Below the pieces are notes generated by a model that saw only the letters and a program-made list of their open reading frames with translations, had not been told where the DNA came from and did not search any database. DNA of 20,139 bases. It comes from a virus (Duplodnaviria; Heunggongvirae; Uroviricota; Caudoviricetes). Both the position numbers and the translations under genes were made by a program. Of this stretch, positions 1,641-19,193 are shown in pieces (within the stretch, counting starts at the first letter, position 1; each line of letters opens with the position of its first letter). The stretch is from IMG/VR virus record IMGVR_UViG_2728369187_000007, positions 1-20,139 of that record, one strand, 5' to 3'.

Positions 1641-4112
1641 TTAAGAATCAGCCTGACTCGGGATCAGTTTTTGCCAGATAACTGAAACGTATTTTGCTTG
1701 GTAACGGGCGTCATCAAGTGCATTATGGCGCTCACCTTCGAATGGAATAGCCGTTCTGGCATCGAAATCTATGGCTTTCCCCAGCTCAACGATTGTGCGT
1801 ACATCGCGATCGTTGTAGTAACGCCACGGGCAGGGGATCCCCTGCCGTTCGTATGAACGGCGCAAAATCGTGTTGTCGAAGTTGGCTCCATTTCCCCAAA
1901 CCTGAACAAAAAATTCACCGGAGTTTTCGTCGATAAATTCCCGCAATTGTAACAGTGCATCATCTAACGGGATTTCATCGGTCATAATGGCAGATTGTGC
2001 TTCGCGTGATTGCTTAAGCCACCATTTAATGGTGTCCCGATCAATGACTCCGCCAGCAGTTTCCAGATCGATAGTCTTACTAAATTCCGGTCCTATATCT
2101 CCGGTTTGCGGATCGAAAAATATTGCACCTATTGAGATGATCGGTGCATCAGGATTTTTTCCCATGGTTTCAAGGTCGATCATTAGATGGTCACACGTCC
2201 TGCTGGTGGATGTGATTTCGTGATGACCGTTCACCTTAATTGAGTGATCTGCCGTCTCGCCAGTTTCATTATCGCTATTGTGATGCTGATTGCCGCCAGT
2301 GTTCTCCTTGTGTGGATGTTCAGCGCCTTCCATTTCCTCCGGATCATCTTCCTGAACTTCAACCTGATACTCTTCATCGAATGTTTCTTGGTATGTTGCG
2401 TCGCCCATCACCGCGCCACAATCAGGGCAGTTGCCGCCGCCGGTCTGACCGCAGGCGGTGCAGACTTTTTCCACTTCCTGTTGCGCCACTGGTTCAGGCT
2501 GTTTCGTTTCTGGCTCGTTTTGTAACGCATTTGGGCTGTTTTGTTCCGCTTTTTGGTAGTTCCGTTCCGATTCATGCTGGTTCTGGTTCACAGAATCGCG
2601 GGTCTGGATCCCCTTAACCCATTTCGGATCATTCGGGTCACTAATCCCTTCAACAAATTCACCATGTGATGCAGCAAGCAACTTATCGGCGTCAGGCTGG
2701 CTGATATTGGCTGCCTGCATAATTTTGTTTACTTCGTCAGCGGTAACTTTTATCGGCTCTGGTTGTTCTGAATCTTCAGCGGTATCTACATTTTGCGGTA
2801 AGCCCGTGTATGTGCCATTTTTTCGGGCAAAATATTCTTCTTTTGTGATTTCAGTGGCGCCAGCAGCCAGTGCCTTATCCAGACCAGAAAGTTTGTTTGC
2901 GCGACCGTATTTTTCTCCGTCCTTATCTGCGAAGAGGAAATAGAACGGCCCCTCACGCTCTACAGATGGTTCAGCTTCCGGCGCGGTTTCATTTTTTGGG
3001 ATATCAGATACCTCAGTTTCCACTGCATCAGTTTGTGTTTCTGATGACTGGAGAACATCAACAGTGCCCAGGTCTGTTTCTTCATTCTCAAACACGCCCT
3101 TTGTCGTCAGGTATTCGCAGATATATTTGTTCAGTGCTACGGGATCTTTGTGAATGTCGATCGGACGCTCACGGACAAGGCCAAAAATAGTTTGGCGGTC
3201 GTAGCGAAGGGCATCAGGCTGTTTGCGCATTGATGCCGAGATACGCTTCCAGTCTTCGCGGTCGTTGTCGATAACTTCTTTTTTTGCCCAGCGATGGATG
3301 CTGCCGTCAATGTTTCCGGCATCCACATCACCAGGCCAGAGAGCGTAGGCCAGTTCGTCATCCAGTGTTTTCCATGTCTGCTTGTATTCGCGATGAATGG
3401 CAGCAATGACCGGGCTGATTTTTCCTGTTGAATTTTCAGTGTACTGTTGATTGGCTCTGGCGCGGGCGAGATCAACAACAGACGTGTATTTTCCGGTTTC
3501 CTTGCGTTCACCTTCGCGACGTTTTTTCCAGATGCGCATCTCTGCCTGAATTTCGGGCCATTTAGCACCAGGAATACATTTATGCTTAACCCACCCAATG
3601 GCGTGCAACTTAAGCTCCGGATACATGGCGTTAACTTCTGGCATTTTCATCAACGCTTCAACGATATGTCCGTCGAATGTTGCCATGTCTTCCTGCAACA
3701 ATTCCTGTGCGCTAATAACCATATCAACGGTGATGTTTTCACATGTGTCGAACTTAACCATGACAGCGTTCTGTACTTCAGGGGCCAGCTTGTCAAAAGT
3801 GACGTTCATCGGATCGGATTCAGTCTCAACCGGGACAAAAGAAGCAGACTCCTCATCCCAGCGGTTTTCCTGCATATATTCAGCATCCCATGAATCGAGG
3901 GCAGGGCGGGGTATGCCAGGTTTATCCTCGCAGACAATAAATTTATAAGCGCAGTCCTGAGCAGCCGGATAATGTTCCAGGAACTGCCAGTGAAATTTTG
4001 CTCGAGCACGGCGTTCGTCGCCAGCTTCAATGGCTGTGGCTACAGCCACAGCGCCTTCTTCCCTTGTTGCCAGTTCGTCAGGAATAGCGGCGCAAATAAA
4101 GACTTTACTCAT
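1641..4112 (-). CDS. RecE-like exonuclease (exodeoxyribonuclease VIII-like) with C-terminal DEDD-type 3'-5' exonuclease domain
   Basis: 823-aa ORF. C-terminal LMIDLETMG matches the Exo I motif (D-x-E-T-x-G) of DnaQ-like exonucleases. Acidic low-complexity linker in the middle. Sits where lambda has exo. Confidence 0.7.
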   Translation of the reverse strand: MSKVFICAAIPDELATREEGAVAVATAIEAGDERRARAKFHWQFLEHYPAAQDCAYKFIVCEDKPGIPRPALDSWDAEYMQENRWDEESASFVPVETESDPMNVTFDKLAPEVQNAVMVKFDTCENITVDMVISAQELLQEDMATFDGHIVEALMKMPEVNAMYPELKLHAIGWVKHKCIPGAKWPEIQAEMRIWKKRREGERKETGKYTSVVDLARARANQQYTENSTGKISPVIAAIHREYKQTWKTLDDELAYALWPGDVDAGNIDGSIHRWAKKEVIDNDREDWKRISASMRKQPDALRYDRQTIFGLVRERPIDIHKDPVALNKYICEYLTTKGVFENEETDLGTVDVLQSSETQTDAVETEVSDIPKNETAPEAEPSVEREGPFYFLFADKDGEKYGRANKLSGLDKALAAGATEITKEEYFARKNGTYTGLPQNVDTAEDSEQPEPIKVTADEVNKIMQAANISQPDADKLLAASHGEFVEGISDPNDPKWVKGIQTRDSVNQNQHESERNYQKAEQNSPNALQNEPETKQPEPVAQQEVEKVCTACGQTGGGNCPDCGAVMGDATYQETFDEEYQVEVQEDDPEEMEGAEHPHKENTGGNQHHNSDNETGETADHSIKVNGHHEITSTSRTCDHLMIDLETMGKNPDAPIISIGAIFFDPQTGDIGPEFSKTIDLETAGGVIDRDTIKWWLKQSREAQSAIMTDEIPLDDALLQLREFIDENSGEFFVQVWGNGANFDNTILRRSYERQGIPCPWRYYNDRDVRTIVELGKAIDFDARTAIPFEGERHNALDDARYQAKYVSVIWQKLIPSQADS

Positions 4113-5915: not shown

Positions 5916-5951
5916 AAAAGAGTGGGCGCAACTAATCACTTGAAAAGAATG

Positions 5952-8896: not shown

Positions 8897-10384
8897 GTGG
8901 ACATTAGAGACTGGCTACCAGAATTTCAAGTTTCAGCAGAAACAGATCGGGACTTACAGACCTATTTTTTTAAGCTACCGGCGATAAAGGATATTATTGA
9001 AAGTAGGGCTTGGTTGGTTCTTGGAAGAAAAGGTACTGGTAAAACAGCCATTTATGAACACCTTAGAAGAGGAAAACCAGCCAATCTCAACGGGTTTTAC
9101 TCAGTATGTCTAAATTTTAGTGACTATCCATGGCCAGCCCATCAACTTTACAAGGATGCAATGGCTGGAGAACTTTCCGCTTATCAAAAAAGTTGGATGT
9201 ATCTTTTTTATATTAAGGCATTATCTAAACTTATTGAAATAAAAAATGATGCTGGAGAGACTTTAAACAAAGATCTAACGTGGGCACATAATTATATCAA
9301 AACTATCTTTGGTAGTCCCGACCCAACTCTTAGGGAGGTTTTGTTTTCAAAAATAACCAGATTAAAAACCATAAAAGGGCCCAGTGCTGGTCTTAATGAA
9401 GTATCATTGGACGCAGGTGAAATTTCGTTAGAGGAAGTTGCTGAGAATGCTCAGCTAAAGCAAAAGCTAAGAGCTAATGCTTTCACATTGCTTACGTATT
9501 TTGAAAAAATTTTTAAAGATAACATTGGTAATGAAAAAATAATTATCGCCCTTGACCAATTAGACGAAAACTGGCTAGAGGGGCAAATTGAAGAATATAG
9601 TAAGGTTTTAATAAATCTGCTAAATGTCTGTAGAAACATAGCATCTGATGAACGCCTCAATGATAAATTAAAAGTCATTCCCTTCCTACGAACGGATATT
9701 TATCATTCTTTGAAATTCAATGATAAAAACAAATTATTGCAAGATAGTGCTATCATAATCTCATGGAATGAAAATAATCTAAACGATATGTATTATGAGA
9801 GGATAAAGAAATACAAACCTAATGATCTCATATTAGATGACGAAAAGGACAGATCTGGGAAAGTATTTGAGGTTTCATTCGTTAGGCAGGGGACTCCTCC
9901 ATTTAAATATATATGTCGCCGTTCTTTCTTTAGGCCTAGGGATATTATTGTCTACTTCAACAAAATTAGGGCATGTCATAAAAATAATGTCTCAGGTCTT
10001 TACACTTCCAATGAGCTTTATGAAGCTGACCGTGAAGCATCTATAAGTGTGTACAATGAGGTGATTGATGAATGGTCCAACCAATTCCCTGAAATTGAGA
10101 ACTTACTAACTGTTCTTCAAACTATCCAAGTAGAAACATTCGATTTTAATGATTTCTCCGAGAAGTGCCGTAATGAATTTGCAGGTATTTCTGATGGGGT
10201 GATACGTCAATATATCAACTTCCTGTTTGATAACTCACTTATCGGACAAAAAAAACAAGGTAGATGGGAATACGTAAGTAGTTTGCCTAACTTAAAAATT
10301 AATCTACAAAATGAGTTTAGGACACATCATGCTTTAAAATACAGGTTGCATTTAATAGAAAGCAGACCGAGCCAAAATATTTAG
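8897..10384 (+). CDS. P-loop NTPase of unknown family (495 aa) on an AT-rich island; candidate accessory/defence gene
   Basis: GTG start with a GAGG RBS 5 nt upstream; in-frame stop 18 nt upstream. Walker A GRKGTGKT (aa 43-50); candidate Walker B IIIALDQLDE (about aa 215-224). Markedly AT-rich relative to flanks, preceded by about 315 bp of AT-rich non-coding DNA. Confidence 0.85.
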   Translation: MDIRDWLPEFQVSAETDRDLQTYFFKLPAIKDIIESRAWLVLGRKGTGKTAIYEHLRRGKPANLNGFYSVCLNFSDYPWPAHQLYKDAMAGELSAYQKSWMYLFYIKALSKLIEIKNDAGETLNKDLTWAHNYIKTIFGSPDPTLREVLFSKITRLKTIKGPSAGLNEVSLDAGEISLEEVAENAQLKQKLRANAFTLLTYFEKIFKDNIGNEKIIIALDQLDENWLEGQIEEYSKVLINLLNVCRNIASDERLNDKLKVIPFLRTDIYHSLKFNDKNKLLQDSAIIISWNENNLNDMYYERIKKYKPNDLILDDEKDRSGKVFEVSFVRQGTPPFKYICRRSFFRPRDIIVYFNKIRACHKNNVSGLYTSNELYEADREASISVYNEVIDEWSNQFPEIENLLTVLQTIQVETFDFNDFSEKCRNEFAGISDGVIRQYINFLFDNSLIGQKKQGRWEYVSSLPNLKINLQNEFRTHHALKYRLHLIESRPSQNI

Positions 10385-10656
10385 CTTACATCCATCTCCA
10401 TTAAGAAATCTTGCTATTGTTCTTATGGATCGTCTTTCTGACTGATTTCATATTGGCGAGGTAAAGGTAGTTAAGTAGAATGGCTGCGGGTGCTTGAGGC
10501 TATCTGCCTCGGGCATGAACACCAAAGGCAGATAGAGAAAAGCCCCAGTTAACATTACGCGTCCTGCAAGACGCTTAACATTAATCTGAGGCTCAATCTA
10601 TGAACGGCAAATCTAGGTTAGCCTCTTACGTGCCGAAAGGCAAGGAGAAGCAGGCT

Positions 10657-10812
10657 ATGAAGCAGCAAAAGGCGATGTTAATCGCCCTGATCGTCATCTG
10701 TTTAACCGTCATAGTGACGGCACTGGTAACGAGGAAAGACCTCTGCGAGGTACGAATCCGAACCGGCCAGACGGAGGTCGCTGTCTTCACAGCTTACGAA
10801 CCTGAGGAGTAA
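10657..10812 (+). CDS. hokD: Hok/Gef-family membrane toxin (HokD/RelF-like)
   Basis: 51-aa product MKQQKAMLIALIVICLTVIVTALVTRKDLCEVRIRTGQTEVAVFTAYEPEE with the single TM helix and conserved Cys of Hok toxins. RBS AAGGAGAAG upstream of the ATG at 10657. Confidence 0.85.
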   Translation: MKQQKAMLIALIVICLTVIVTALVTRKDLCEVRIRTGQTEVAVFTAYEPEE

Positions 10813-10883
10813 GAGACCTGGCGGGGGAGAAATCCCTCGCCACCTCTGATGTGTCTGGCATCCTCAACGCACCCGCACTTAAC

Positions 10884-10900
10884 CCGCTTCGGCGTTTTTT
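10884..10900 (+). terminator. Weak intrinsic terminator downstream of hok
   Basis: Short GC hairpin (CGC-TTCG-GCG) followed by T6; a degenerate copy of the stronger terminator at 11547-11572. Confidence 0.35.
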
Positions 10901-10955
10901 CCGTTGATTAACTCTAGTTATTAGAGAACCGAACTTTTATTGATGGGGCAGGGAG

Positions 10956-11348
10956 ATGAAGAAACTTGTTTTAGTCGCAGGTGTAATGATTGCAACAGTA
11001 ATGTTGGGAGGGTGTGCAGCAAAGGTCGATCCAGCGTTGAAAGCAGAAGCAATGAAGCCACTAACATGTAATGATGAAAAGCAATGTGACTTTTATTGGA
11101 AACGAGCGCAATTCTGGTTGGCTAATAATTCCTCATGGAAAATTCAAACGGCGACAGACACGCTAATTTCCACTTATAATCCCTCTCCAAATAGTCCATT
11201 CCTCGCTTATCAAGTGAGTAAAATGCCAAATGAAGATGGATCCTCAAGAATTTTCATCAAGCCTTTTTGCGATAATATGTTTGGCTGTCAACCAAACCCC
11301 TATCAGGCAGTTGTTTCCTTTAAAAACTTCGTTAAAACAGGGCAGTAG
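10956..11348 (+). CDS. Lipoprotein of unknown function (moron)
   Basis: Signal peptide with lipobox (VMLGGC, Cys20) plus four further Cys. GGGAGA RBS. Lower GC than the backbone. Bracketed by terminators upstream and downstream. Confidence 0.7.
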   Translation: MKKLVLVAGVMIATVMLGGCAAKVDPALKAEAMKPLTCNDEKQCDFYWKRAQFWLANNSSWKIQTATDTLISTYNPSPNSPFLAYQVSKMPNEDGSSRIFIKPFCDNMFGCQPNPYQAVVSFKNFVKTGQ

Positions 11349-11546
11349 TGTATAGCTTGGACGATAAATTATTAGTGAAAACGCCGTAAACCCTCACCCA
11401 ATGTGGACTAAGTCTATCAAACATGACTGTGATGATTAGTCCGTAGTTGTTGCCTATGAAATCTGGATTGAGTCAGGGTTTAATCCAATAATTATTCTAT
11501 CGTTCCTTTACAAGTCCGGTATATTACTTTCAGTTTGTTTTAGCAT

Positions 11547-11572
11547 ACCCGCTTCGGCGGGTTTTGTTTTTT
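11547..11572 (+). terminator. Rho-independent terminator
   Basis: 6-bp stem ACCCGC / GCGGGT with a TTCG loop, followed by TTTTGTTTTTT. The ORF-track TTG start at 11564 lies inside it and is rejected. Confidence 0.7.
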
Positions 11573-11644
11573 CCTGGCATTCTGGTTTACAATTCGCACG
11601 CCAGCCTGAACAACTGGCACCTGCTGCGCCAGCAGAGACAACCG

Positions 11645-14828: not shown

Positions 14829-15044
14829 ATGAAATCCATGGACAAAATTTCAACGGGCATTGCCTACGGCACCTCCGCAGGCAGTGCTGGCTACTGGTTT
14901 TTACAGTGGCTTGATCAGGTCAGTCCGTCACAGTGGGCTGCGATTGGTGTACTGGGGAGTCTGGTTCTGGGCTTCCTGACTTATCTGACAAATCTGTACT
15001 TCAAAATCAGAGAAGACAAGCGTAAGGCTGCACGGGGAGAGTAA
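14829..15044 (+). CDS. Class II pinholin (phage 21 S-like) with dual-start motif
   Basis: 71 aa, [24 protein letters not shown]..., two TM segments. Met1 and Met4 give the S21-type 71/68 antiholin/holin pair. Confidence 0.85.
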
Positions 15045-15048
15045 TTCA

Positions 15049-15363
15049 ATGACTCAAAACTATGAACTGATTGTGAAAGGGATCCGCAATTTTGAGAATA
15101 AAGTTACGGTAACTTTAGCGTTACGGGACAAAAAACGCTTTGACGGTGAAATTTTTGGCTTGGACATCTCGCTGGACCGTGTTGAAGGTGCCGCGCTGGA
15201 GTTTTATGAGGCAGCAGCCAGAAGGAGCATCAGACAGGTCTTCCTGGATGTTGCTGCCGGGCTATGTGAAGGGGACGAGCTGTTGCCAGAAACGCGCCCC
15301 TGTTCAGAGGCGCGGTATACCATAAAAATTAACAGTTCTGATAACTCGATTACAGGTTGTTAG
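15049..15363 (+). CDS. Hypothetical protein between holin and endolysin (YdfR-like by position and length)
   Basis: 104-aa ORF starting 5 nt after the holin stop. In the K-12 Qin prophage a 103-aa gene (ydfR) sits in the same place, as I recall. No motif recognised. Confidence 0.6.
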   Translation: MTQNYELIVKGIRNFENKVTVTLALRDKKRFDGEIFGLDISLDRVEGAALEFYEAAARRSIRQVFLDVAAGLCEGDELLPETRPCSEARYTIKINSSDNSITGC

Positions 15364-15418
15364 CTTTTTGCAGTTGGCTTTCCAGTATCTTTCATTGGTA
15401 GCATCCTGATAAATATCC

Positions 15419-15952
15419 ATGAGCGCAAAAATCAAATACGGCCTGTCAGCTGCTGTTCTGGCGCTGATTGCTGCAGGCGCGTCTGCTCCTCAAATACTTG
15501 ACCAGTTTCTGGATGAAAAAGAGGGTAACCACACTACGGCATACCGCGATGGTTCCGGCATATGGACCATCTGCCGCGGTGCAACGATGGTGGATGGTAA
15601 GCCAGTCGTACCAGGAATGAAACTGTCGAAGGAAAAATGCGCTCAGGTTAATGCCATTGAGCGTGATAAGGCGCTGGCATGGGTGGAGCGCAATATAAAA
15701 GTTCCACTGACCGAGCCACAGAAAGCCGGTATCGCATCATTCTGTCCCTATAACATTGGCCCCGGTAAGTGTTTCCCGTCGACGTTTTATAAGCGGCTGA
15801 ATGCCGGTGATCGTAAGGGCGCATGCGAGGCGATTCGCTGGTGGATAAAAGATGGTGGGCGCGATTGCCGCATACGTTCAAATAACTGCTATGGACAGGT
15901 TATTCGTCGTGACCAGGAAAGCGCATTAGCCTGTTGGGGGATAGATCAGTGA
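15419..15952 (+). CDS. SAR endolysin (phage lysozyme with N-terminal signal-anchor-release domain)
   Basis: 177 aa. Weakly hydrophobic N-terminus ([17 protein letters not shown]) followed by the lysozyme catalytic triad spacing E-x8-D-x5-T ([18 protein letters not shown]). Confidence 0.85.
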
Positions 15953-16413
15953 GCAGAGTCGCCGCGATTATTTATGCTCTGGTTATTTGCATCATCGTCT
16001 GCCTGTTGTGGGCGGTCAATCATTACCGTGATAACGCCATCGCCTACAAAGAACAGCGTGATAAAAAAGTCAGTGAGCTGAAGCAGGCGATCGCCACCAT
16101 CGCTGACATGCAGCAGCGTCAGCGTGATGTTGCTGCGCTCGATGCAAAGTACTCGAGAGAATTAGCCAATGCGAAAGCTGAAAATGAAACTCTGCGCGCT
16201 GATGTTGCCGCTGGTCGTCGTCGGTTGCACATCAAAGCAGTCTGTCAGTCAGTGCGTGAAGCCACCACCGCCTCCGGCGTGGATAATGCAACCAGCCCCC
16301 GACTGGCAGACACCGCTGAACGGGATTATTTCACCCTCAGAGAGCGGCTGATGACGATGCAGATGCAACTGGAAGGGGCACAGGAGTATATCCGCACTCA
16401 GTGCATTAAGTAG
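15949..16413 (+). CDS. rz: Rz i-spanin
   Basis: GTG start overlapping the endolysin stop (GTGA). N-terminal TM helix then coiled coil; near-identical in pattern to lambda Rz (MSRVTAII...). The ORF-track TTG start at 15934 is rejected. Confidence 0.85.
16169..16351 (+). CDS. rz1: Rz1 o-spanin lipoprotein, embedded in the +1 frame of Rz
   Basis: 60 aa, lipobox LVVVGC, proline-rich (PPPPPAW); matches lambda Rz1. Lies entirely within Rz. Confidence 0.8.
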
Positions 16414-16953: not shown

Positions 16954-17436
16954 ATGTCAGGACCTCCGAAAACCCCGCCACACCTGCATTTGATTCGAGG
17001 CAACCCCTCAAAGCGCCCCGTTAAAGACCACAAAAAAACCGCTAAAAAGGATGAAAAAGGTCTTCCTAAAATTCCGCAGCATTTAGGGGCTCAGGGGAAG
17101 TACTGGTTCAGGCGAATGGCGGAAGAGCTGAATGCGGAAGGGATCATTTCTCAGCTTGATGCGCGTGCGCTCGAGTTGCTGGTGGAAGCCTACACCGAAT
17201 ATCGGCATCACTGCGAAACACTCGATGTTGAGGGGTATACCTACCGCACGGAAACGCAGAGCGGTGATGTACTGATTAAGGCGCACCCCGCGGCGGCAAT
17301 GAAAGCGGATGCCTGGAAGCGGATCCGGGCAATGCTTGCAGAGTTTGGTATGTCACCGGCAAGCCGGGCTAAAGTAAATATCGCCGGACCGGATGATGTT
17401 GATCCGCTGGCGGAGCTTTTAAAAGCGAGAGACTGA
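16954..17436 (+). CDS. Terminase small subunit
   Basis: 160-aa protein directly upstream of the large terminase, with overlapping stop/start (ATGA). Basic N-terminus. Confidence 0.75.
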   Translation: MSGPPKTPPHLHLIRGNPSKRPVKDHKKTAKKDEKGLPKIPQHLGAQGKYWFRRMAEELNAEGIISQLDARALELLVEAYTEYRHHCETLDVEGYTYRTETQSGDVLIKAHPAAAMKADAWKRIRAMLAEFGMSPASRAKVNIAGPDDVDPLAELLKARD

Positions 17437-19193
17437 TGGCAAAAGTGGCTGACGGGATCCGCTACGCCGAACGTGTTGTTGCAGGAGAAATTGTTGCTGG
17501 CGAATTTGTCCGCCTGGCCTGCCAGCGTTTTCTTGATGATCTGAAGTACGGCGAAGAGCGGGGGATTTATTTCAGTGAACCCCGTGCGCAGCACATCCTG
17601 AATTTCTACAAATTTGTGCCTCATGTAAAAGGGGCGCTGGCAGGCCAGCCCATTGAGTTGATGGACTGGCATGTATTTATCCTCATTAATATTTTTGGTT
17701 TTGTCATTCCGCTGGTCAATGAAGAGACCGGGGAAGTTGTCATGCGCAGCGATGGCAGCGGACGTCCGGTGATGGTGCGCCGGTTCCGGACGGCGTACAA
17801 CGAAGTCGCCCGTAAAAACGCAAAATCAACTCTGTCATCGGGTATCGGCCTGTATATGACGGGGGCAGATGGTGAAGGCGGAGCTGAGGTGTATTCAGCC
17901 GCAACCACGCGTGACCAGGCCAGAATCGTGTTTGAAGACGCCAAAAATATGGTCAGAAAAGCCAGGTCGACACTCGGGCGGTTGTTTGATTTCAACAAGC
18001 TGGCGATTTACCAGGAGCAGAGCGCATCAAAATTTGAACCGCTTTCTTCGGATGCAAACAACCTGGATGGTCTGAACATCCACTGCGCCATTATTGATGA
18101 GCTGCATGCACATAAAACCCGTGACGTGTGGGACGTTCTGGAAACGGCAACCGGTGCCCGTCTGCAGTCCCTTTTATTTGGTATCACCACGGCAGGGTTT
18201 AACAAGGAAGGGATTTGTTACGAGCAGCGTGATTACGCCATCAAGGTATTGCGTGGCTATAACAGCGACGTGGAGGGCGCGGTAAAAGACGACTCCTACT
18301 TTGCGATTATTTACACCCTCGATGAGGGAGATGATCCGTTTGATGAAACGGTCTGGCAGAAAGCGAATCCCGGCCTGGGCATCTGTAAACGCTGGGATGA
18401 TCTGCGTCGCCTGGCGAAAAAAGCGAAAGAACAGGTCTCTGCGCGGGTGAATTTTTTTACCAAACACATGAATGTGTGGGTAACAGCAGAGTCTGCCTGG
18501 ATGGACATGATTAAGTGGGAGAAGTGCGAATACATTGCCCCACGACATGAGCTGAAAACGTATCCCATGTGGGTCGGCGTTGACCTTGCTCATAAGATTG
18601 ATATCTGTGCGGCGGCAAAACTCTGGCGAACGGATAACGGGCATGTTCATGCCGATTTTAAATTCTGGCTTCCGGAAGGACGACTGGAACGATGCTCGCG
18701 GCAGCAGGCAGAACTTTACCGGAAGTGGGCGGAGATGGATAAGCTGATTCTGACGGATGGTGATGTTATCGATCATGCTCAGATAAAAAGTGACTTACTG
18801 GAATGGATTGGTGGTGAAAACCTCAGGGAACTGGGATTTGACCCGTGGAGCGCGATGCAGTTCAGCCTGGCACTGGCTGAAGAAGGGATACCGCTAGTGG
18901 AGGTTCCGCAGACGGTTCGCAATCTGTCAGAGGCCATGAAGGAAACGGAATCACTGGTCTATGCCGGGCGTTTCCATCACAGCAATCATCCGGTCATGAA
19001 CTGGATGATGTCTAACGTTACGGTAAAACCGGACAAAAACGACAATATCTTCCCGAATAAATCCACGCTGGAAGCCAAAATCGACGGCCCTGTTGCGATG
19101 TTTACAGCAATGAGCCGGATGCTGGTCAATGGTGGTGAACCGGAGCTGGATCTGTCTGAACATCTGGTCAGCGTGGGCATCCGCTCGCTTTAA
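17436..19193 (+). CDS. Terminase large subunit
   Basis: 585-aa protein; ATPase region followed by nuclease region; the standard position after the small terminase. Confidence 0.85.

What the first reader, a model, noticed from the sequence alone, without database searches (positions are those of the whole stretch)
10956..11572. Lipoprotein moron forming a self-contained unit between two terminators
The 130-aa lipoprotein (lipobox Cys20 plus four more Cys, suggesting periplasmic disulfides) lies between the weak terminator at 10884-10900 and the strong one at 11547-11572, with a roughly 200-nt 3' untranslated stretch. This promoter-gene-terminator layout is typical of morons expressed from the prophage. 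Prophage lipoproteins in this kind of position often mediate superinfection exclusion or serum resistance, but I do not recognise this sequence.
Basis: partly seen in the sequence, partly recalled or inferred. Interest (0 to 1): 0.45.

Follow-up and report, generated by a model that had tools for sequence, protein, structure and literature searches.

The report
Prophage lipoprotein gene inserted in hok terminator
A 665-base accessory cassette encoding an outer-membrane lipoprotein of an unstudied, mostly phage-borne family sits inside the terminator of a prophage toxin gene; it is a typical "moron" whose function, possibly blocking other phages at the cell envelope, is untested.

Summary
The ORF (10956-11348, 130 aa, lipobox LGGC20, four more Cys) is real and under purifying selection. 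The terminator at 11547-11572 is strong. The "weak terminator" at 10884-10900 is only a 3-bp remnant of a hairpin.

Related phages show what happened. A 665-bp, low-GC segment is inserted in the terminator hairpin of the prophage hokD/sok locus and is flanked by a 13-bp direct repeat (ACCCGCTTCGGCG). The uninterrupted site occurs in 2489 of 5426 complete E. coli genomes, the filled site in 255.

The protein has no Pfam, NCBIfam, PADLOC or PDB sequence match. It belongs to a large unnamed family (1141 clusters at 50% identity). In 13 of the 17 contexts I read, the gene lies in a phage or integrative element: tail-tip modules, beside repressors, beside toxin-antitoxin pairs, beside an integrase. 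The modelled fold resembles Flpp3 and the BamC N-domain.

Several relatives carry their own extended -10 promoter and terminator. This copy has lost that promoter motif, so it is probably transcribed by read-through from hok.

The moron reading is supported; the self-contained promoter-gene-terminator layout is not. Function is unknown. Superinfection exclusion is my favoured guess, at about 0.35. This is a new member of a known kind, of moderate interest.

The parts
10453..10481 (+). Predicted hok promoter (TTGGCG-17-TAGAAT). It is the likely source of transcription into the lipoprotein gene in a lysogen.
   Evidence: Promoter scan, 9 of 12 matches. It lies just upstream of the Rfam sok/hok match that starts at 10488. 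Its role for the lipoprotein gene is inferred.
10488..10662 (+). hok/sok regulatory region (Rfam RF01794).
   Evidence: cmscan: 110.1 bits against a gathering score of 59, E = 1.3e-25.
10600..10812 (+). mok/hok reading frame (Hok/Gef toxin, hokD type).
   Evidence: Pfam HOK_GEF, E = 3e-23. RefSeq annotates the equivalent gene as hokD.
10869..10874 (+). GCACCC, complementary to the predicted 5' end of the hok mRNA (GGGUGC, 10488-10493). It is probably the fold-back (fbi) element, and it lies upstream of the insertion and is intact.
   Evidence: Read from the sequence. The interpretation rests on established knowledge of hok mRNAs and is an inference.
10882..10900 (+). Left copy of the 13-bp direct repeat (10882-10894) plus a T-run.
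   Evidence: the repeat finder family D1 and the pattern search. Fold of -3.9 kcal/mol, z = +0.67. All E. coli copies carry the same truncation.
10895..11559 (+). The 665-bp inserted segment relative to the empty site (equivalently 10882-11546). It is low in GC.
   Evidence: Alignment with phage Evi, which lacks it. Repeat spacing of 665. GC 0.375-0.42 inside against 0.52-0.565 upstream and 0.53-0.60 downstream.
10901..10955 (+). Cassette 5' leader. It is homologous to the promoter/leader module of relatives, but the TGnTAGGAT motif is disrupted (it reads AGTTATTAG).
   Evidence: Alignments A5 and A8. Motif scans.
10956..11348 (+). Lipoprotein gene, 130 aa. The signal peptide is 10956-11012, the lipobox Cys20 codon is 11013-11015, and the mature protein is 111 aa.
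   Evidence: phrog_16082, E = 2.6e-84. dN/dS of 0.04-0.13 between genera. AlphaFold model with mean pLDDT 84.1.
11349..11546 (+). 198-nt stretch after the stop codon with no ORF. It has no homologue outside E. coli copies and decays by deletions in variants.
   Evidence: Only two phage hits, both E. coli copies. No match in the other contexts, and stops in all frames. A 68-bp deletion in phage 606R7 and a roughly 100-bp deletion in strain TUM1886.
11547..11572 (+). Intact hokD-type intrinsic terminator (ACCCGC-TTCG-GCGGGT followed by TTTGTTTTTT). It holds the right copy of the repeat (11547-11559) and now ends the lipoprotein transcript.
   Evidence: Terminator scan. Fold of -13.1 kcal/mol, z = -3.1. 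Identical to the terminator of the empty site.

Best explanation
The region is a horizontally acquired accessory ('moron') cassette. It encodes a lipoprotein that is probably anchored to the outer membrane and faces the periplasm, with two likely disulfides. The protein belongs to a large, unnamed family found mostly on phages.

The cassette is inserted in the terminator hairpin of the prophage's hokD/sok locus, which leaves a 13-bp direct repeat of the hairpin's left half. Several relatives have their own extended -10 promoter about 40 nt before the start codon and their own terminator. This E. coli copy has lost that promoter motif, and the upstream hairpin is cut down to 3 bp.

The gene is therefore most likely transcribed by read-through from the constitutive hok promoter in the lysogen, and by early rightward transcription during lytic growth. 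Transcription would end at the intact copy of the hok terminator at 11547-11572, giving a hok-lipoprotein RNA of about 1.1 kb.

The protein most likely acts at the cell envelope of the lysogen. My favoured mechanism is binding to a conserved envelope component from the periplasmic side, so that incoming phages cannot adsorb or deliver DNA (superinfection exclusion, as with Llp, Cor and Rtp45).

Shown: the insertion, the family, the phage and mobile-element contexts, purifying selection, the lipobox, and the fold class. Inferred: outer-membrane location, read-through expression, and the exclusion function. My confidence is about 0.9 for 'moron lipoprotein cassette', about 0.55 for read-through from hok, and about 0.35 for exclusion.
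For: Insertion.
- Phages Evi, 813R8 and 640R1 match both flanks but lack the middle. The alignment puts the boundaries at the hairpin.
- The 13-mer repeat occurs only at 10882 and 11547, against 0.01 expected.
- The empty site is in 2489 of 5426 E. coli genomes and the filled site in 255.
- GC drops to about 0.40.

Real gene.
- dN/dS is 0.04-0.13 between genera, with synonymous sites saturated in most pairs.
- The lipobox Cys and three other Cys are invariant in 51 diverse members, and the fifth Cys is at least 90% conserved.
- A lipobox regex matches 119 of 147 representatives.

Family and contexts.
- 1141 clusters at 50% identity have E <= 1e-3.
- 13 of the 17 contexts I read are phage or integrative elements.
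- Six of these are inside tail modules: between H and M, M and L, I and J, next to J in Pantoea, and in Bordetella and phiJL001-like tails.
- One is a prophage remnant next to a gpM fragment.
- One lies directly after a CI-like repressor on the same strand.
- One lies after ParDE near SieB.
- One lies between divergent early operons.
- One lies just before an integrase.
- A PDZ-fused member lies next to restriction-modification genes in an integrase element.
- The thirteenth is this window.

Expression.
- Seven of 18 upstream regions carry TGnTAnnnT, against 2.1 expected. Six of the seven sit at -42 to -36. None of the three E. coli variants has it.
- The left hairpin is no better than shuffles.
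- In an LF82 lysogen, hokD RNA of prophage Tritos is 3792 times the prophage background (PMC9928086).

Exclusion analogy.
- Known exclusion lipoproteins Llp and Rtp45 are periplasmic lipoproteins that bind the periplasmic side of the phage's outer-membrane receptor (PMC12685063).
- From my own knowledge of that literature, not checked here, such genes usually sit next to the receptor-binding protein gene.
Against: - No sequence homology to any exclusion or defence protein. PADLOC gave 0 hits. The Cor hit (phrog_1119, E = 0.007) covers only residues 1-44, the signal peptide and the start of the mature protein.
- The mature protein has 111 residues (about 12-13 kDa by my estimate), roughly twice the size of Rtp45, which the paper gives as about 6 kDa, and of Llp.
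- In E. coli the gene is not next to tail genes, and it occurs in prophages with different structural modules.
- Four further family members from species-representative genomes have neighbours that are not clearly phage.
- Read-through is inferred from sequence only. A non-canonical promoter cannot be excluded.
- Most E. coli copies are nearly identical. That shows recent spread and gives little evidence of selection within E. coli.
Confidence: 0.45

Rival explanations
1. A host-fitness or virulence lipoprotein rather than an anti-phage one. It would act like lambda Bor/Iss (serum resistance) or alter envelope properties such as stress tolerance, adhesion or immune evasion in the lysogen.
For: It is a probable outer-membrane lipoprotein moron, like Bor (cited in PMC3594210). 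The best structural match, Flpp3, is a Francisella lipoprotein whose PDB entry 2mu4 is titled 'F. tularensis Virulence Determinant'. Carriers include avian pathogenic (APEC), porcine diarrhoea and human isolates.
Against: No Pfam hit to Lambda_Bor or to any virulence family. The family also occurs in phages from environmental samples and in plant-associated Pantoea, which argues against a function specific to animal hosts.
Confidence: 0.2
2. A periplasmic immunity or inhibitor protein. It would protect the lysogen's envelope against a toxin or enzyme acting in the periplasm, such as a bacteriocin, a type VI secretion effector, a lysozyme or tail-associated lysin, or a protease.
For: It is small, disulfide-containing and periplasmic. 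Some family members are fused to a C-terminal PDZ domain. One such member sits in an island carrying restriction-modification genes. Several tail-module copies lie next to the gpK-like NlpC/P60-JAB gene.
Against: No toxin or effector gene is consistently adjacent. Neighbours differ in every context. There is no similarity to known inhibitor folds among the top structural matches.
Confidence: 0.1
3. In this E. coli lineage the gene is an unexpressed or decaying passenger. The cassette lost its promoter and is carried along with the hok region without doing anything.
For: The extended -10 motif of relatives is absent in all three E. coli sequence variants. The stretch after the stop codon is shrinking by independent deletions. 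Insertion sequences have landed just upstream in some copies. A frameshifted variant (P0012) and truncated forms exist in the databases.
Against: The ORF is intact in the three E. coli sequence variants I translated and in the 54 near-identical viral-contig copies that match over the full 130 aa. Among E. coli variants about 5% divergent in DNA, dN/dS is 0.12-0.30. The abundant hok RNA now has only a crippled hairpin between it and the gene.
Confidence: 0.15
4. A lysis protein (an outer-membrane spanin like Rz1) or a virion or assembly component.
For: It is a phage lipoprotein. There is a weak PHROG hit to an Rz-like spanin (E = 0.21), confined to residues 9-51. Many relatives lie inside tail gene clusters.
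Against: The window has its own lysis cassette 3.5 kb downstream: holin at 14829, lysozyme at 15419, and an Rz-position ORF at 15934. The gene is absent from most related phages. From general knowledge, a lipid-anchored exported protein cannot join a tail assembled in the cytoplasm. The mature part is a folded 111-aa alpha/beta domain, unlike spanins.
Confidence: 0.02

Closest known systems
Morons of lambdoid phages (HK97 gene 15, lambda bor and lom, HK639 genes 17/18 between H and M)
   Same: It is extra DNA at a gene junction that is absent from close relatives, with deviating GC, and bounded by terminator hairpins. [quoted passage not shown] The same gene turns up at different junctions, including inside tail operons (definition in PMC3594210).
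   Different: This copy lacks a recognisable promoter of its own and uses a duplicated host-site terminator. It sits inside a toxin-antitoxin locus rather than between two phage genes.
Superinfection-exclusion lipoproteins Llp (T5, binds FhuA), Cor (phi80/HK022/N15, FhuA) and Rtp45 (Rtp, binds LptDE)
   Same: It is a phage-encoded lipoprotein with the signature of outer-membrane sorting. Many relatives lie in the tail-tip and host-specificity module. It would act from the periplasmic side (mechanism of the known cases from PMC12685063).
   Different: There is no sequence homology: the Cor PHROG matches only residues 1-44 at E = 0.007. The mature protein is about twice as large, with a helix-grip-like alpha/beta fold. 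No receptor is known and no phenotype has been tested.
Lambda Bor / Iss outer-membrane lipoprotein
   Same: It is a small prophage lipoprotein moron that would be expressed in the lysogen.
   Different: No Pfam Lambda_Bor match. The position in the genome differs, and the conserved Cys pattern is a feature of this family.
Flpp3 (DUF3568, Francisella) and the BamC N-terminal domain
   Different: Sequence identity is 11-15%, no Foldseek match has E <= 0.001, and KA1 domains of eukaryotic kinases score equally well. The likeness is at fold level only and says nothing about function.
PHROG families phrog_16082 and phrog_4186 (both of unknown function)
   Same: There is a full-length match to phrog_16082 (E = 2.6e-84) and a partial match to phrog_4186 (E = 2.2e-8). 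The family has therefore already been clustered among phage proteins.
   Different: Neither family has any annotation or study behind it. There is no Pfam or NCBIfam model.

Membership tests
Moron (as defined in PMC3594210) | Extra DNA present in one phage and absent at the same place in close relatives | tested here: met
   Empty site in phage Evi and others. Empty in 2489 E. coli genomes and filled in 255.
Moron (as defined in PMC3594210) | Base composition different from the surrounding genes | tested here: met
   GC 0.375-0.42 across 10900-11599, against 0.52-0.565 upstream and 0.53-0.60 downstream.
Moron (as defined in PMC3594210) | Own promoter | tested here: not met
   No sigma-70-like or extended -10 site in 10813-10955. 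Six relatives do have TGnTAnnnT at -42 to -36, so the family meets the feature and this copy does not.
Moron (as defined in PMC3594210) | Own terminator | tested here: inconclusive
   A strong terminator follows at 11547-11572, but it is the recipient site's hok terminator. Relatives have terminators about 20-75 nt after the stop codon.
Moron (as defined in PMC3594210) | Expressed from the repressed prophage | not testable with these tools
   Indirect evidence only. hokD RNA is very abundant in a lysogen (PMC9928086), and the hairpin between hok and the gene is crippled.
Bacterial lipoprotein (signal peptidase II substrate) | Positively charged N-terminus, hydrophobic core, and a lipobox ending in Cys | tested here: met
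   MKK, then LVLVAGVMIATVM, then LGGC20. Cys20 is invariant in the family. A lipobox regex matches 119 of 147 representatives. No dedicated signal-peptide predictor was available.
Bacterial lipoprotein (signal peptidase II substrate) | Outer-membrane sorting (no Asp at position +2) | tested here: met
   Residues +2 and +3 are Ala-Ala. The +2 rule is established knowledge for E. coli. The actual location was not measured.
Cor / Llp / Rtp45 exclusion lipoproteins | Sequence homology of the mature protein | tested here: not met
   phrog_1119 (Cor) matches only residues 1-44, E = 0.007. No PADLOC, Pfam or PDB sequence hit.
Cor / Llp / Rtp45 exclusion lipoproteins | Blocks adsorption or DNA entry through a defined outer-membrane receptor | not testable with these tools
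   This needs phage challenge and binding experiments.
Lambda Bor / Iss | Match to the Pfam Lambda_Bor model | tested here: not met
   No such hit for this protein or for 51 family members.
Outer-membrane spanin (Rz1-like) | Short lipoprotein encoded within or next to the Rz gene in the lysis cassette | tested here: not met
   The gene lies 3.5 kb upstream of the lysis cassette at 14829-16413. The mature protein is a 111-aa folded domain.
Pfam DUF6491 | Score above the Pfam gathering threshold | tested here: not met
   Only sub-threshold hits, in 11 of 51 family members (best E = 0.0048), and none for this protein. A distant relationship is possible but unproven.

The most novel reading that the evidence does not exclude
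The family is a new, widespread class of phage-encoded outer-membrane lipoproteins with a helix-grip-like fold and two disulfides. It would exclude superinfecting phages by binding a conserved envelope machine rather than a variable receptor. It would move between phage genomes as a cassette whose borders are near-identical terminator hairpins (ACCCGCTTCGGCGGG), together with a promoter/leader module shared with unrelated lipoprotein morons. In E. coli the cassette would have been rewired to the hok promoter.
Probability: 0.25. Interest if true: 0.6.

Novelty: new member of a known kind. Interest (0 to 1): 0.4.

Why it matters
Prophage accessory genes that act at the cell envelope decide which other phages can infect a strain. 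That matters for phage therapy and for how pathogenic E. coli acquire new prophages. This family is large, mostly phage-borne, conserved and completely unstudied, so one phage-challenge experiment could assign a function to more than a thousand protein clusters.

The locus also gives a clean before-and-after picture of how a moron lands. It sits inside a terminator hairpin, flanked by a repeat of that hairpin, and appears to have swapped its own promoter for that of a highly expressed toxin gene.

Tried and rejected
- Sequence searches found no named family. Pfam, NCBIfam, PADLOC and PDB sequence searches, with the single protein and with a 51-member profile, gave nothing usable.
- Foldseek against viral structures (BFVD) and the PDB gave nothing with E <= 0.001. 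The AlphaFold-database library was not available.
- A census of contexts through the search for related loci failed with broad alignments, which had no stretch conserved enough. One genome scan found no relative.
- Single-protein scans of viral contigs gave 0-1 loci.
- A degenerate DNA pattern returned mostly the same E. coli contigs and only 7 genome hits, of which 4 were true family members.
- I asked whether the 198-nt stretch after the stop codon is the remnant of a second gene or of a donor flank. It has no similarity to the second lipoprotein genes that follow some relatives, nor to any other context, and it carries stops in all frames.
- The second lipoproteins downstream of relatives are unrelated to each other beyond their N-terminal ~32 residues, so there is no conserved two-gene system.
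- One variant has a different left flank (L035) and one a different upstream region (L021). These turned out to be IS10 and IS629-like insertions, not new contexts.
- Literature searches for the RefSeq accession and for related terms found no study of this protein.
- The spanin or structural-protein reading was rejected (see rivals).

Full report
**Setting**

The window is a lambdoid (Rac/Qin-like) E. coli prophage.
- Left end: integrase and exonuclease genes, then an HTH repressor-like gene and YdaT and DUF977 genes.
- Middle: a hok/sok locus (Pfam HOK_GEF, E = 3e-23; Rfam sok, 110 bits), followed by DUF968, RusA and antiterminator Q.
- Right end: four tRNAs, a holin/lysozyme lysis cassette, and ORFs of terminase-like size (160 and 585 aa, not scanned here) at 16954-19193.
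- The finding lies between hok and the DUF968 region.

**Check of the observation**

- The ORF at 10956-11348 encodes 130 aa with MKK, a hydrophobic core, LGGC20, and Cys at 38, 44, 105 and 111.
- The hairpin at 11547-11572 is a strong intrinsic terminator: -13.1 kcal/mol, z = -3.1.
- The stretch between the stop codon and that hairpin is 198 nt.

Two points do not hold.
- The 'weak terminator' at 10884-10900 pairs only 3 bp. It folds at -3.9 kcal/mol, and 147 of 200 shuffles do at least as well.
- No sigma-70-like or extended -10 site lies between the hok stop and the ATG.

**What happened at this site**

- Three phages (Evi, 813R8, 640R1) match both flanks of the region but not the middle.
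- Aligned with phage Evi, the window carries an extra 665 bp that begins and ends in the hok terminator hairpin.
- The 13-mer ACCCGCTTCGGCG, the left arm and loop of that hairpin, occurs in the window only at 10882 and 11547. The chance expectation is 0.01.
- The right copy is the complete hairpin. The left copy lost its right arm (GCG-TTTTTT instead of GCGGGTTTT) in every E. coli copy examined.
- GC falls from about 0.55 to about 0.40 across the insert.
- The uninterrupted hokD-terminator junction is present in 2489 of 5426 complete E. coli genomes. The insert is present in 255, always on the chromosome.
- Every filled copy I inspected lies downstream of hok. Two apparent exceptions are IS629-like and IS10 insertions next to the gene.

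**The protein**

- There is no Pfam, NCBIfam, PADLOC or PDB sequence match.
- It matches phrog_16082 over its full length and phrog_4186 in part. Both are of unknown function.
- A word-indexed search found only 16 close relatives, in Enterobacter, Pantoea, Phytobacter and E. coli, all named 'hypothetical'.
- An exhaustive profile search found 1141 clusters at 50% identity with E <= 1e-3 and 532 with E <= 1e-10. Most are 125-135 aa.
- In 51 diverse members, Cys20, Cys38, Cys44 and Cys105 are invariant and Cys111 is nearly so.
- Between genera dN/dS is 0.04-0.13 where it can be computed. Synonymous sites are saturated in most pairs.
- The AlphaFold model has a mean pLDDT of 84.1; ten-residue block means for the mature domain (residues 31-130) are 84-96. 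It shows a helix, a short strand, a long helix, a four-stranded sheet and a C-terminal helix.
- Some family members carry a C-terminal PDZ domain.

**Where relatives live**

I read 17 gene contexts, counting this window. Thirteen are phage or integrative elements:
- E. coli, downstream of hok: this window.
- Enterobacter hormaechei, 81% identical: between the tape measure gene and gpM.
- Pantoea ananatis: between gpI and gpJ.
- Phytobacter: a prophage remnant next to a gpM fragment.
- Pantoea sp.: after an Arc/Ant block, upstream of gpJ.
- A metagenomic phage: between gpM and gpL.
- Yersinia enterocolitica: directly after a ParD-ParE pair near SieB, in two different prophages.
- Bordetella: in a tail module upstream of a J-like gene.
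- Achromobacter: 75 nt after a CI-like repressor on the same strand.
- A phiJL001-like tail module.
- Between divergent early operons.
- Just before an integrase.
- A PDZ-fused member: in an integrase element next to restriction-modification genes.

Four further members from species-representative genomes have neighbours that are not clearly phage. The same gene therefore sits at many different junctions of phage genomes, which is the behaviour of a moron (definition in PMC3594210).

**Cassette anatomy and expression**

- In E. hormaechei and Pantoea sp. the gene is preceded by the same hairpin, CCCGCTTCGG(C/T)GGG plus a T-run. The same hairpin also closes the unrelated HK639_17/18 moron in front of gpM.
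- About 40 nt before the start codon, six contexts carry TGnTAnnnT at -42 to -36. One of the six is an unrelated 267-aa lipoprotein of phage PHB10 that shares the whole leader. Overall 7 of 18 upstream regions match, against 2.1 expected.
- Most single-gene relatives have a terminator about 20-75 nt after the stop codon.
- The E. coli copy keeps the leader but reads AGTTATTAG where relatives read TGTTAGGAT. It has no terminator of its own, and the 198 nt after the stop codon have no homologue elsewhere and shrink by deletions in variants.
- The only recognisable promoter upstream is that of hok (10453-10481), and only the crippled hairpin separates it from the gene.
- In a published lysogen transcriptome, hokD of prophage Tritos is the most strongly transcribed prophage gene listed, at 3792 times the local background (PMC9928086).
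- I therefore infer that the gene is made from a hok-lipoprotein read-through RNA of about 1.1 kb that ends at 11572. This is an inference from sequence, not an observation.
- The near-identity of the hairpins suggests that the cassette entered by recombination between its own border hairpin and the hok terminator. This too is an inference.

**Function**

Nothing here proves a function.
- An Ala at +2 predicts outer-membrane anchoring by the E. coli sorting rule.
- Three observations fit a protein made in the lysogen that acts on the envelope: the restriction mostly to temperate phages and mobile elements, the frequent position in tail-tip and host-specificity modules, and the copies placed behind a repressor or next to defence or toxin-antitoxin genes.
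- The best-understood proteins of this kind are the exclusion lipoproteins Llp and Rtp45. They bind the periplasmic side of FhuA or LptDE and change the surface loops (PMC12685063).
- The family's most conserved stretch is polar (NNSxWKIQTxTDxxISTxNP) and is kept from Escherichia to Bordetella. This hints at a conserved partner rather than a variable receptor.
- Against this reading, there is no homology to any known exclusion protein, the protein is about twice their size, and in E. coli it is not linked to a tail type.
- My estimates are: exclusion about 0.35, a Bor-like fitness role about 0.2, periplasmic immunity or inhibitor about 0.1, silent passenger in this lineage about 0.15, and lysis or structural role about 0.02.

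**Verdict**

The object is a new, unstudied member of a known kind (prophage lipoprotein morons). It comes with an unusually clear insertion site and a testable rewiring to the hok promoter. Interest is moderate, at 0.4.

Noticed in passing
window 8897-10384 (+): A 495-aa ORF with very low GC (0.29-0.38 against about 0.53 further downstream) lies just upstream of hok. It has a full-length match to phrog_13260 (unknown function) and only weak hits to AAA_16 and to PADLOC candidate PDC-M28C (E = 4e-5). The UMNK88 prophage has other genes at this position. It may be a second accessory or defence insertion.
   Followed up: partly
window 11547-11572; L002 about 1581-1605; L004 about 5924-5945; L012 about 5922-5942; L149 about 1437-1460: The same terminator hairpin, ACCCGCTTCGGCGGG plus a T-run, recurs at moron borders in unrelated lambdoid phages. 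It is the hokD terminator, it lies on the 5' side of the lipoprotein cassette in Enterobacter and Pantoea prophages, and it lies on the 3' side of the HK639_17/18 moron before gpM. It may serve as a short-homology site for moron exchange.
   Followed up: partly
L150 1880-1960 (phage PHB10); L004 5945-6003: A promoter/leader module of about 60 nt (TGATAGGATTA...TTTTTACTGATGG.ATAGGGACATGAAAAAA) is shared between this family and an unrelated 267-aa lipoprotein (phrog_7468) that follows the tape measure gene of phage PHB10.
   Followed up: partly
L021 about 200-331; L035 about 3500-3975: In two E. coli viral contigs an insertion sequence sits immediately upstream of the lipoprotein gene. In L021 an IS629-like end lies a few bases before the start codon. 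In L035 an IS10 transposase end abuts the sequence CACTTAACCCGC. I recognised both elements by eye from their end sequences and the transposase translation, not by a database match.
   Followed up: partly
L012 6374-6721; L075 4374-4784; L017 6434-6979: In three relatives a second lipoprotein gene follows directly: overlapping the stop codon in the two Pantoea-type loci, 55 nt downstream in Achromobacter. The three second proteins are unrelated to each other beyond their N-terminal ~32 residues, and nothing like them is in the window.
   Followed up: yes
window 11387-11402 and 11467-11482: A 16-nt inverted repeat (88% complementary, 64 nt apart) lies in the stretch after the stop codon. The 68-bp deletion in phage 606R7 removes most of the left arm and the spacer.
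   Followed up: no
L014 and L015 5314-6402: In two different Yersinia enterocolitica prophages the homologue lies directly after a ParD-ParE toxin-antitoxin pair. This echoes its position after hok/sok in E. coli. It could be coincidence or a shared hot spot for accessory genes.
   Followed up: no
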